This document shows positions 27,075-30,983 of a stretch of DNA of 64,000 nt, piece after piece. The notes beneath the pieces were generated by a model. That model was given only the letters and a program-made list of their open reading frames with translations, was not told the DNA's origin and did no database searches. This stretch comes from the human T2T-CHM13v2.0 reference genome, Homo sapiens. Where the stretch lies: the NCBI RefSeq assembly GCF_009914755.1, contig NC_060932.1; one strand, written 5' to 3'. Each line of letters starts with the position of its first letter. Position 1 is the stretch's first letter. A program made the translations under genes and the position numbers.

Positions 27075-27169
27075 GTTCAGTCGGCAATGTGTTGTTGACA
27101 AGGACAAAAGGAATCAATGTAGATATTGTCGATTAAGAAAGTGTTTTAGAGCGGGAATGAAAAAAGAAG
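27075..27169 (+). CDS. HNF4G: HNF4G coding exon 3 (second zinc finger)
   Basis: Acceptor atAG|G, donor G|GTAAT. Encodes [31 protein letters not shown]; 95 nt keeps the frame. Confidence 0.97.
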
Positions 27170-29024: not shown

Positions 29025-29513
29025 AACTCACTCTTTCTTTTTTTTTTTTTTCACAAAGAAGTTTCTCAGAATGCTTCTGGGTAGTTGTTTTTTTTTAATT
29101 ATTATTATTATTATACTTTAAGTTTTAGGGTACATGTGCACAACATGCAGGCTAGTTACATATGTATACATGTGCCATGCTGGTGTGCTGCACCCATTAA
29201 CTCATCATTTAGCATTAGGTATATCTCCTAATGCTATCCCTCCCCTCTCCCCCTACCCCACAACAGTCCCCAGAGTGTGATGTTCCCCTTCCTATGTCCA
29301 TGTGTTCTCATTGTTCAATTCCCATCTATGAGTGAGAACATGTGATGTTTGGTTTTTTGTCCTTGTGATAGTTTACTGAGAATGATGATTTCCAATTTCA
29401 TCCATGTCCCTACAAAGGACATGAACTCATCATTTTTTATGGCTGCATAGTATTCCATGGTGTATATGTGCCACATTTACTATGACAAACCCACAGACAA
29501 CTCACTCTTTCTT
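29025..29513 (-). mobile_element. 5'-truncated L1PA (L1PA3-like) with 3' transduction and micro-inversion, TSD-bounded
   Basis: TSD AACTCACTCTTTCTT at 29025-29039 and 29499-29513. Antisense L1PA 3' end at ~29097-29478 (GAG rather than ACA at the Ta-diagnostic site; CCAGCATGG, GTAACTA). Confidence 0.92.
29052..29087 (-). repeat. 36-bp alpha-satellite fragment
   Basis: CACAAAGAAGTTTCTCAGAATGCTTCTGGGTAGTTG. Its reverse complement AACTACCCAGAAGCATTCTGAGAAACTTCTTTGTG closely matches the alphoid monomer core (AACTA(G/C)ACAGAAGCATTCT(C/G)AGAAACTTCTTTGTG). Confidence 0.85.
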
Positions 29514-30876: not shown

Positions 30877-30983
30877 CTGTACAAAATGAACGTGACAGAA
30901 TAAGCACCAGAAGAAGCACATTTGATGGCAGCAACATCCCCTCCATTAACACACTGGCACAAGCTGAAGTTCGGTCTCGCCAG
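30877..30983 (+). CDS. HNF4G: HNF4G coding exon 4 (T-box/hinge)
   Basis: Acceptor ccctAG|CT, donor CAG|GTAC. Encodes [36 protein letters not shown]. Confidence 0.97.

What the first reader, a model, noticed from the sequence alone, without database searches (positions are those of the whole stretch)
29025..29110. L1 3' transduction of alpha-satellite DNA into an HNF4G intron: footprint of a centromere-embedded active L1
Seen: read on the minus strand, the insertion is L1 3' end (...TAAAGTATAATAATAATAATAATT) + A9 + CAACTACCCAGAAGCATTCTGAGAAACTTCTTTGTG + A14. A 15-bp TSD (AACTCACTCTTTCTT) encloses all of it, and the empty site reads TTCTT/AAAA, an L1 endonuclease-type site. Known: two poly(A) tracts enclosing non-L1 sequence inside one TSD is the signature of a 3' transduction. 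The 36-mer matches the alphoid monomer core. In alphoid monomers this core directly follows an A-run (..CATAAAAACTA..), a plausible L1 target. Inference: the parent L1PA3-like element sat inside alpha-satellite DNA, was transcribed despite that context, and exported a satellite tag to a euchromatic gene. Such a tag could identify a (peri)centromeric source element and its sibling insertions.
Basis: partly seen in the sequence, partly recalled or inferred. Interest (0 to 1): 0.8.

Follow-up and report, generated by a model that had tools for sequence, protein, structure and literature searches.

The report
L1 insertion carrying an alpha-satellite tag
A short, old L1 retrotransposon copy in an HNF4G intron carries 36 bases of centromere-type alpha-satellite DNA behind its tail, the footprint of a parent L1 that sat in alpha-satellite DNA; it is a tidy but ordinary kind of event, and the parent cannot be traced.

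Summary
An identical 15-nt target-site duplication (29025-29039, 29499-29513) encloses one insertion. In L1 sense (minus strand) it holds a 5'-truncated L1 3' end, A9, a 36-nt non-L1 piece and A12-14. The nick site reads TTCTT/AAAA.

The 36-mer is alpha satellite. It has 1374 matches at up to 2 mismatches in this genome against 0 for the reversed control. All 29 inspected matches lie in alphoid DNA, and the two loci run through Tandem Repeats Finder are 171-bp arrays.

The best reading (0.85) is an L1 3' transduction from a parent L1 lying in alphoid DNA. The tag starts at the alphoid A-run where about ten other L1s in this genome end, in the same orientation.

New here: 20-22 nt of inverted L1 ORF2 (RT region) sit at the 5' junction, an atypical twin-priming mark. 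It shows that the template RNA carried at least about 2.1 kb of L1.

Not supported: that the tag identifies a source or siblings. None was found. The 18 one-mismatch alphoid places on 10 chromosomes lie in diverged, pericentromere-type alphoid. "Centromere-embedded" is therefore overstated. Ape orthologues could not be checked.

It is a new member of a known kind, of modest interest.

The parts
29025..29039 (.). Target-site duplication, copy next to the terminal A-run (AACTCACTCTTTCTT on the + strand)
   Evidence: family D3: 15 of 15 identical to 29499-29513. Sequence.
29040..29051 (-). Terminal poly(A) of the retrotransposed RNA. It is T12 on the + strand, or A12-14 if the first two A of the duplication are counted.
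   Evidence: It cannot be templated by alphoid DNA, which reads A + TGTGTGCATTC-like here in 51 of 51 related monomers.
29052..29087 (-). 36-nt alpha-satellite tag, the transduced 3' flank of the parent L1
   Evidence: 1374 matches at up to 2 mismatches, reversed control 0. The only exact match is the window, and 18 places have 1 mismatch; all 29 inspected matches lie in alphoid context; 171-bp tandem arrays.
29088..29096 (-). Internal A9, read as the remnant of the parent element's own genomic A-tail merged with the AA of its alphoid target. An ATTAAA hexamer spans 29094-29099.
   Evidence: ATTAAA ends 42 nt before the cleavage site. Of the 16 hexamers tested, none lies 10-30 nt before it.
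29097..29478 (-). 5'-truncated L1 3' end: the end of ORF2, the 3' UTR and an (AAT)n-ATT tail, about 382 nt
   Evidence: 374-393 nt at 88.5-92.4% to 7 of 8 genomic L1 comparators; nearest genomic copies 96-97%; 9 of 384 private differences. ATT x 5.7 at 29098-29114.
29479..29498 (+). Inverted fragment of L1 ORF2 (reverse-transcriptase region). It is 20 nt, or 22 with the 2 nt shared with the duplication. This is an atypical twin-priming mark.
   Evidence: 22-23 nt with 1 mismatch, on the opposite strand, in 8 of 8 comparators; it lies 1738-1743 nt upstream of the truncation point in 5 of 8; 8413 genome matches against 55 for the control; the site lies inside RVT_1 of the L046 ORF; junction letters.
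29499..29513 (.). Target-site duplication, copy at the L1 5' side. It is followed by AAAAGC, the other half of the nick site TTCTT/AAAA.

Best explanation
This is one L1 retrotransposition event, roughly 10-15 million years old, inserted antisense in the HNF4G intron between exons 27075-27169 and 30877-30983.

The parent L1 lay in alpha-satellite DNA. Its A-tail abutted the alphoid A-run just before ...CTAC(C/A)CAGAAGC.

Transcription ran through the L1 tail into the satellite. The RNA was cleaved and polyadenylated 36 nt into the flank, just before a GU-rich alphoid stretch.

The L1 machinery nicked the + strand at TTCTT/AAAA and primed on the new poly(A). It copied the tag, the old A-run and about 382 nt of L1, then stopped.

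The other target end (...GAGTT-3') primed by 2 nt of homology inside the RT-coding region of the same RNA and copied about 20 nt. The two cDNAs were joined, giving a 15-nt target-site duplication.

Shown: the anatomy, the alphoid identity of the tag, the recurrent L1 site in alphoid DNA, and the ORF2 origin of the inverted piece.

Inferred: read-through and the choice of cleavage site, the age, and that the parent was a long and probably competent L1 in pericentromeric diverged alphoid.

No function at HNF4G is indicated.
For: 1. The 15 of 15 duplication encloses L1 + A9 + tag + A12-14. The nick site is TTCTT/AAAA. The L1 target preference TTTT/AA is quoted in PMC8934628 (passages).

2. The tag is alphoid. 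It has 1374 matches against 0 for the control. All 29 inspected matches lie in alphoid context. L012 and L003 are 171-bp arrays.

3. The register fits. About ten other L1s end, in the same orientation, at this alphoid A-run:
- 6 of the 7 non-window hits, checked;
- two more, of which the chr11 one was checked and the chr20 one was not inspected;
- a chr19 element with the duplication AAAAACTACCCAGAAGCATT.
A random alphoid fragment would start here, in this orientation, about 1-2% of the time (my estimate: a few nt of 171, times one half).

4. The tag ends where related monomers continue with A + TGTGTGCATTC. This is exact in 19 of 51 and similar in the rest. It is a GU-rich stretch of the kind found after cleavage sites (recalled knowledge).

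5. The inverted ORF2 piece shows that the template RNA reached at least about 2.1 kb upstream of the L1 3' end.

6. Read-through from embedded elements into alpha satellite has been seen by PRO-seq (Hoyt et al. preprint, passages). In addition, 114 full-length L1s lie in CHM13 centromeric satellites (PMC8219666, passages).
Against: No parent element and no sibling with the same junction exists in this genome:
- One search found 1 of 1 match, the window.
- One search found the window only.
- In one search the only other full-span hit is 82% alike. It has a different tail and different L1 variants.
- The 7 L1s are only 89.1-94.7% alike to the window's L1 and have other tails.

These searches are not exhaustive. 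Exact anchors would miss perhaps half of 2-3% diverged copies (my estimate). One search scored only 40 of 518 candidates.

No usual poly(A) hexamer lies 10-30 nt before the cleavage site. The nearest, ATTAAA in the L1 tail, ends 42 nt before it.

The twin-priming reading is atypical. Only about 20 nt are inverted, and 1.74 kb of L1 is missing between the two pieces.

The empty site in other primates was not seen.
Confidence: 0.85

Rival explanations
1. Template switch. The L1 reverse transcriptase began on a polyadenylated alpha-satellite transcript. It copied 36 nt up to the alphoid A-run, then jumped by T/A homology onto the poly(A) tail of an L1 RNA from anywhere in the genome. On this reading no L1 ever lay in satellite DNA.
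For: The tag starts at an A-run (AA/CAACTAC in the window; AAAAACTAC in relatives). That could give a nascent T-ended cDNA a foothold on a poly(A) tail. No parent L1 with this flank was found.
Against: It needs a polyadenylated alphoid RNA used in trans, then a jump landing within 9 nt of the L1 3' end. Known chimeric retrocopies made by template switching carry the L1 as the first-copied 3' part and lack an A-run at the joint (recalled knowledge, not tested here). The genomic arrangement that a plain read-through needs exists about ten times in this genome.
Confidence: 0.06
2. Later capture. An ordinary L1 insertion with a tail of about 23 A later took up a 36-bp alphoid fragment inside its A-tail. 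The routes could be break repair with filler DNA, or integration of extrachromosomal alphoid circles as proposed for dispersed alpha repeats. Any short duplication of A's would be invisible.
For: Feliciello et al. 2020 (PMC7719264, passages) document dozens of short alpha repeats dispersed in euchromatin. They favour extrachromosomal circles and short homologies, and they report no evidence for spread by retrotransposons.
Against: Both ends of the fragment would have to coincide by chance with the L1 integration register in alphoid DNA, in the right orientation, and with a site followed by a GU-rich stretch. At 0.2 monomer the piece is smaller than any repeat in that paper's table, whose minimum is 0.3.
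Confidence: 0.05
3. Trans-mobilised read-through RNA. The template was not made by a competent L1. It was a transcript from some other promoter that ran through an L1 fragment lying in alphoid DNA, and it was copied in trans like a processed pseudogene.
For: Truncated L1s do lie in alphoid DNA at this register; the chr19 element is about 270 nt. Hoyt et al. state that truncated elements can transduce (passages). The insertion is 5'-truncated, so its own 5' end says nothing.
Against: The inverted ORF2 piece shows that the RNA carried L1 sequence at least about 2.1 kb from the 3' end, including the RT-coding region. L1 proteins prefer the RNA that encoded them (recalled knowledge).
Confidence: 0.04

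Closest known systems
L1 3' transduction (read-through of the L1 poly(A) site, with flanking DNA carried to the new site)
   Same: L1 3' end with its own A-run, then non-L1 DNA, then a second poly(A). All of it sits inside one target-site duplication at a TTTT/AA-type nick site. The mechanism is described in the Hoyt et al. preprint (passages), which lists 183 high-confidence L1 3' events in CHM13.
   Different: The cargo is alpha satellite and only 36 nt long. The parent cannot be located. Catalogue pipelines mask repeats in the transduced piece before looking for parents (T2T-Y preprint, methods passage). Such a case would probably not reach their high-confidence lists; I could not see their supplementary tables.
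AluSx3-WaluSat: satellite DNA moved by a retroelement transduction (Hoyt et al.)
   Same: A retroelement carried a piece of satellite-type repeat to new loci by transduction (passages).
   Different: There the carrier was an Alu, the cargo a 64-nt unit that later expanded into arrays, and several copies exist. Here an L1 carried a fifth of an alphoid monomer, once, with no expansion (one search finds no tandem array at the site).
Dispersed euchromatic alpha-satellite repeats (Feliciello et al. 2020, PMC7719264)
   Same: A short alphoid piece in a gene intron, far from any centromere.
   Different: That study lists repeats of 0.3 monomer and more. It does not list HNF4G (0 occurrences). It concludes that retrotransposons play no role in their spread. 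This piece is 0.2 monomer and was, on the evidence here, delivered by L1.
Twin priming (5'-inverted L1 insertions)
   Same: Antisense L1 sequence lies directly after the 5' duplication copy. It shares 2 nt of homology between the target end and the L1 RNA. Twin priming is named as a source of L1 structures in PMC8219666 (passage).
   Different: Only about 20 nt are inverted, and 1.74 kb of L1 is missing between the pieces. As I recall the classic cases, the two pieces nearly abut in L1 coordinates.

Membership tests
L1 3' transduction | L1 3' end with its own A-rich tail, followed by non-L1 sequence | tested here: met
   the L1 match ends at the (AAT)n-ATT tail + A9. The next 36 nt match alphoid DNA, not L1.
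L1 3' transduction | A second poly(A) at the end of the extra sequence | tested here: met
   A12-14 at 29040-29051. It is not templated by alphoid DNA.
L1 3' transduction | One target-site duplication around the whole unit, at an L1 endonuclease-type site | tested here: met
   15 of 15 at 29025-29039 and 29499-29513. The site reads TTCTT/AAAA.
L1 3' transduction | The extra sequence matches the 3' flank of a parent L1 elsewhere | tested here: not met
   Searches return the window only. The one other full-span hit is not the parent. About ten L1s do sit at the same alphoid register. The searches are not exhaustive, and the parent may be lost or absent from this genome.
L1 3' transduction | An unoccupied site with one duplication copy in outgroup species | not testable with these tools
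   No primate genome other than this assembly is held.
Alpha satellite | Sequence matches monomers of about 171-bp tandem arrays at (peri)centromeres, beyond chance | tested here: met
   1374 matches against 0 for the control; alphoid flanks in 29 of 29 loci; 3 of them abut another satellite on one side; period 171, 17.8 copies. That the coordinates are pericentromeric is recalled, not computed.
Alpha satellite of an active (homogeneous higher-order) centromere array | The closest relatives recur at a fixed long period in near-identical copies | tested here: not met
   only 18 one-mismatch places, at most 4 per chromosome, on 10 chromosomes. Periodic hits (chr5, spacing about 2.2 kb) have 2 mismatches; neighbouring monomers are 81-82% alike.
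Twin priming | An inverted L1 piece next to the 5' duplication, with microhomology at the priming site | tested here: met
   22 nt with 1 mismatch. TT is shared between the end of the duplication and the L1 sequence.
Twin priming | Inverted and direct pieces nearly contiguous in L1 coordinates | tested here: not met
   they lie 1738-1743 nt apart in 5 of 8 comparators.

The most novel reading that the evidence does not exclude
L1 3' transduction may be an overlooked, recurrent route by which alpha-satellite fragments reach euchromatin. It would be missed because transduction pipelines mask repeats in the cargo, and because surveys of dispersed alpha repeats ignore pieces under about 0.3 monomer. 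On this reading, several of the published dispersed alpha repeats 'adjacent to L1PA' elements are the same thing. Such tags would then form a fossil record of retrotransposition-competent L1s that lived in (peri)centromeric satellite over primate evolution.
Probability: 0.35. Interest if true: 0.5.

Novelty: new member of a known kind. Interest (0 to 1): 0.35.

Why it matters
The insertion is direct sequence evidence that an L1 lying in alpha-satellite DNA was transcribed into the satellite and retrotransposed into a gene-bearing chromosome arm. Published work has proposed centromeric L1s as an unexplored source of active elements (PMC8219666). It has also seen read-through into satellite at the RNA level (Hoyt et al.).

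One survey of dispersed alpha repeats concluded that retrotransposons play no part in their spread (PMC7719264). This single case runs against that general statement.

The practical limits are plain. The tag is too short and alphoid DNA too repetitive to name the parent. No effect on HNF4G is indicated.

Tried and rejected
1. Search for the parent or siblings by junction patterns.
- Searches (specific anchors; terminal A-run plus the start of the tag) returned only the window.
- (relaxed anchors) gave 7 and 8 other L1s in alphoid DNA. None has the window's tail. The 7 are 89.1-94.7% alike over the L1 3' end.
- (BLAST of the 99-nt junction; 40 of 518 candidates scored) gave one further full-span hit, on chr19. 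One search shows it to be a different, short, 5'-inverted L1.

2. Search for alphoid tags behind L1 tails at two other alphoid registers, in the opposite orientation. They gave 3 and 4 hits, all at pericentromere-type coordinates and none euchromatic.

3. Tails of the 29 nearest L1 relatives: none is followed by alphoid sequence.

4. Naming the L1 subfamily: no repeat classifier is on hand, so only divergence was measured.

5. Literature. Six full-text searches found no report of an L1 3' transduction of alpha satellite. bioRxiv supplements are closed and I opened no PMC supplements, so the transduction tables of Hoyt et al. and the tables of Feliciello et al. were not seen. They might list this locus.

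6. Earlier findings of this scan were not open.

7. The idea that the L1 landed beside a pre-existing alphoid fragment is rejected. The duplication encloses the tag and the second A-run. The bases after A9 do not repeat those before the L1 5' end.

Full report
**What is there**

Read on the minus strand, which is the L1 sense strand, the insertion has these parts in order:

| Part | Window coordinates |
|---|---|
| Duplication copy AAGAAAGAGTGAGTT | 29513-29499 |
| 20 nt that are not collinear with the L1 3' end | 29498-29479 |
| About 382 nt of L1 3' end, closing with TAAAGTATAATAATAATAATAATT | 29478-29097 |
| A9 | 29096-29088 |
| CAACTACCCAGAAGCATTCTGAGAAACTTCTTTGTG | 29087-29052 |
| A12 | 29051-29040 |
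| Second duplication copy | 29039-29025 |

- The repeat finder reports the 15-nt repeat at 100% identity (family D3). One placed 15-mer match has a chance of about 9e-10.
- The rebuilt empty site reads ...CTCTTTCTT/AAAAGC on the + strand. That is a TTCTT/AAAA nick site, close to the TTTT/AA preference of the L1 endonuclease quoted in PMC8934628 (passage).
- By the hub's gene table the insertion lies in the HNF4G intron between exons 27075-27169 and 30877-30983, antisense to the gene.
One refinement: its A14 is A12 plus two A that belong to the duplication.

**The 36-mer is alpha satellite**

- In the window's own genome the 36-mer has 933 + 441 = 1374 matches at up to two mismatches. The reversed control has none.
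- The only exact match is the window. Eighteen places have one mismatch: contigs 5, 10, 13, 16, 19 and 21 (one each), 22 (two), 14 and 23 (three each) and 15 (four).
- I printed the flanks of the 29 non-window loci returned. All lie in alphoid context. Three of them, on contigs 13, 14 and 21, abut a GGAAT-like satellite on one side.
- Two loci run through Tandem Repeats Finder are 171-bp arrays of 17.8 copies, with 81-82% matches between neighbouring units.
- Natural monomers read ...CACATAACAACTAC(A/C)CAGAAGC... or ...CATAAAAACTAC... at this point. The tag is therefore a bona fide monomer stretch, leading C included.
- After the tag's last G, all 51 related monomers examined continue with A, followed by a GU-rich stretch. 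TGTGTGCATTC is exact in 19 of the 51.

**Why 3' transduction is the best reading**

- Two A-runs around foreign DNA inside one duplication is the accepted signature. The mechanism is described in the Hoyt et al. preprint. Interspersed poly(A) tracts are used the same way in a 2026 cancer-genome preprint (passage).
- The register of the tag adds independent weight. A pattern asking for an L1 tail, a gap and alphoid at this register found the window and seven other places.
  - All seven are L1 3' ends running into further alphoid monomers.
  - Six sit at exactly the A-run before CTAGACAGAAGC or CTACACAGAAGC, and one sits 22 nt upstream.
- A shorter L1 anchor added two more hits, on contigs 11 and 20. 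The contig 11 element was checked and lies in an array. The contig 20 hit was not inspected.
- A BLAST of the junction added a chr19 element flanked by the duplication AAAAACTACCCAGAAGCATT.
- So the arrangement that read-through needs, an L1 tail followed by this alphoid A-run in this orientation, recurs about ten times in one genome.
- A random alphoid fragment would begin here, in this orientation, only about 1-2% of the time (my estimate).

- The 20 nt at 29479-29498, plus 2 nt shared with the duplication, match L1 on the opposite strand. The match is 22-23 nt with one mismatch in 8 of 8 genomic L1 comparators.
- In five of these (L046, L047, L051, L052, L053) the site lies 1738-1743 nt upstream of the point where the direct piece begins. 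L048 and L050 are themselves rearranged. L049 lacks a good match to the 3' end.
- The 20-mer has 8413 genome matches at up to two mismatches, against 55 for the control.
- In L046 the site lies inside an ORF whose residues 164-420 match RVT_1 at E = 2.9e-46.
- The orientation is what twin priming predicts: antisense L1 directly after the 5' duplication, running from a higher to a lower L1 coordinate, with TT shared between the target end and the L1 sequence.
- It is atypical because only about 20 nt were copied and 1.74 kb is missing between the pieces.
- Its value here is that the template RNA must have carried L1 sequence at least about 2.1 kb from its 3' end, including RT-coding sequence. 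That favours a long parent element over a small L1 fragment.

**Age**

- The nearest genomic copies of the 384-nt L1 piece are 96-97% identical (40 of 2271 candidates were scored).
- Against the majority of its 29 nearest relatives, the window's copy has 9 private differences in 384 nt (2.3%). The relatives have 1-11.
- At a recalled neutral rate of roughly 0.15-0.2% per million years this gives about 11-15 million years.
- The estimate is rough, and it is biased because the comparators are the closest copies. No classifier was available.

**What is not supported**

- The tag does not lead to a parent or to siblings.
  - The specific junction pattern and the pattern of terminal A-run plus tag start each returned only the window.
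  - The seven analogues are 89.1-94.7% alike and have other tails.
  - The chr19 element is short, 5'-inverted, and differs in tail and in L1 variants.
  - None of the 29 nearest L1 relatives is followed by alphoid sequence.
- These searches would miss perhaps half of 2-3% diverged copies, and the parent may simply be absent from this genome. So absence is moderate evidence only.
- With 2.3% divergence, a 35 of 36 match is as good as the true source could give, and 18 places share it. The tag therefore cannot name a chromosome.
- A monomer of a homogeneous higher-order array would recur hundreds of times at one mismatch. The sparse, scattered best matches and the 81-82% similarity between neighbours point instead to diverged, pericentromere-type alphoid.
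  - There, embedded L1s are commonplace. Hoyt et al. report that element density rises with distance from the higher-order arrays (table legend).
  - 'Centromere-embedded' is thus overstated.

**An open detail**

Of the 16 poly(A) hexamers tested, only ATTAAA in the L1 tail (ending 42 nt before the cleavage site) and AAAACA (34 nt) are present. None lies in the usual 10-30 nt range. Which signal directed cleavage is not settled. The parent's A-tail may have had a different length at the time.

**Rivals**

- Template switch from a polyadenylated alphoid RNA onto an L1 poly(A) tail (0.06).
- Later capture of an alphoid fragment inside the A-tail (0.05).
- Trans-mobilisation of a read-through transcript through an L1 fragment (0.04).

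The sequence excludes none of them. The first two do not explain the register at both ends. The third is weakened by the ORF2 piece.

**Comparison with the literature**

- L1 3' transduction is a known kind. The Hoyt et al. preprint lists 183 high-confidence L1 events in CHM13 and describes an Alu-borne satellite (WaluSat).
- The same preprint shows read-through from embedded elements into alpha satellite by PRO-seq.
- PMC8219666 counts 114 full-length L1s in CHM13 centromeric satellites and calls them an unexplored source of active L1s.
- PMC7719264 catalogues dispersed alpha repeats of 0.3 monomer and more. It does not list HNF4G, and it concludes that retrotransposons play no role in their spread. 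This locus is a counter-example.
- The transduction pipeline masks repeats in the cargo before it searches for parents (T2T-Y preprint methods). That may be why such cases are not reported.
- In six full-text searches I found no report of an L1 3' transduction of alpha satellite. I read passages only and saw no supplementary tables.

**Verdict**

It is a new member of a known kind, with an unusual cargo and an extra twin-priming mark. It has no traceable parent and no sign of function. Interest is modest.

Noticed in passing
window 29479-29498: A 20-nt inverted piece of the L1 ORF2 RT region sits between the 5' duplication and the L1 3' end. It was taken from 1.74 kb upstream of the truncation point. 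This is a very short twin-priming patch.
   Followed up: yes
L086 (G000:C19:25781250-25781750): A short L1, about 270 nt, lies in chr19 alphoid DNA and has a 5'-inverted half. It is flanked by the duplication AAAAACTACCCAGAAGCATT, at the same alphoid register and with the same ACCCAG variant as the window's tag (34 of 36). It lies 4 kb from a one-mismatch hit (L013).
   Followed up: partly
L004, L005, L014 (contigs 13, 14, 21): The same alphoid monomer is cut off at ...GGGTAGTGG and joined to GGAAT-like satellite. The flanks are nearly identical on three acrocentric short arms, so this looks like a shared duplicated junction.
   Followed up: no
L002/L013, L006/L015, L007/L016: Pairs of alphoid loci on different chromosomes (5 and 19; 14 and 22, twice) have identical flanks over the roughly 146 nt printed. 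They look like paralogous pericentromeric blocks shared between chromosomes.
   Followed up: no
G000:C5:50670153-50796028 (one search list): Two-mismatch hits recur at a spacing of about 2214 bp, sometimes 2722 bp, over more than 120 kb. This is a homogeneous higher-order alphoid array on contig 5 that carries the CAACTAGACAG variant.
   Followed up: no
L062 and L067 (tails): Among the nearest L1 relatives, one tail runs straight into another L1 ORF2 3' piece. Another has two A-rich runs around about 25 nt before an Alu-like sequence. These are possible nested or transduction cases and were not examined.
   Followed up: no
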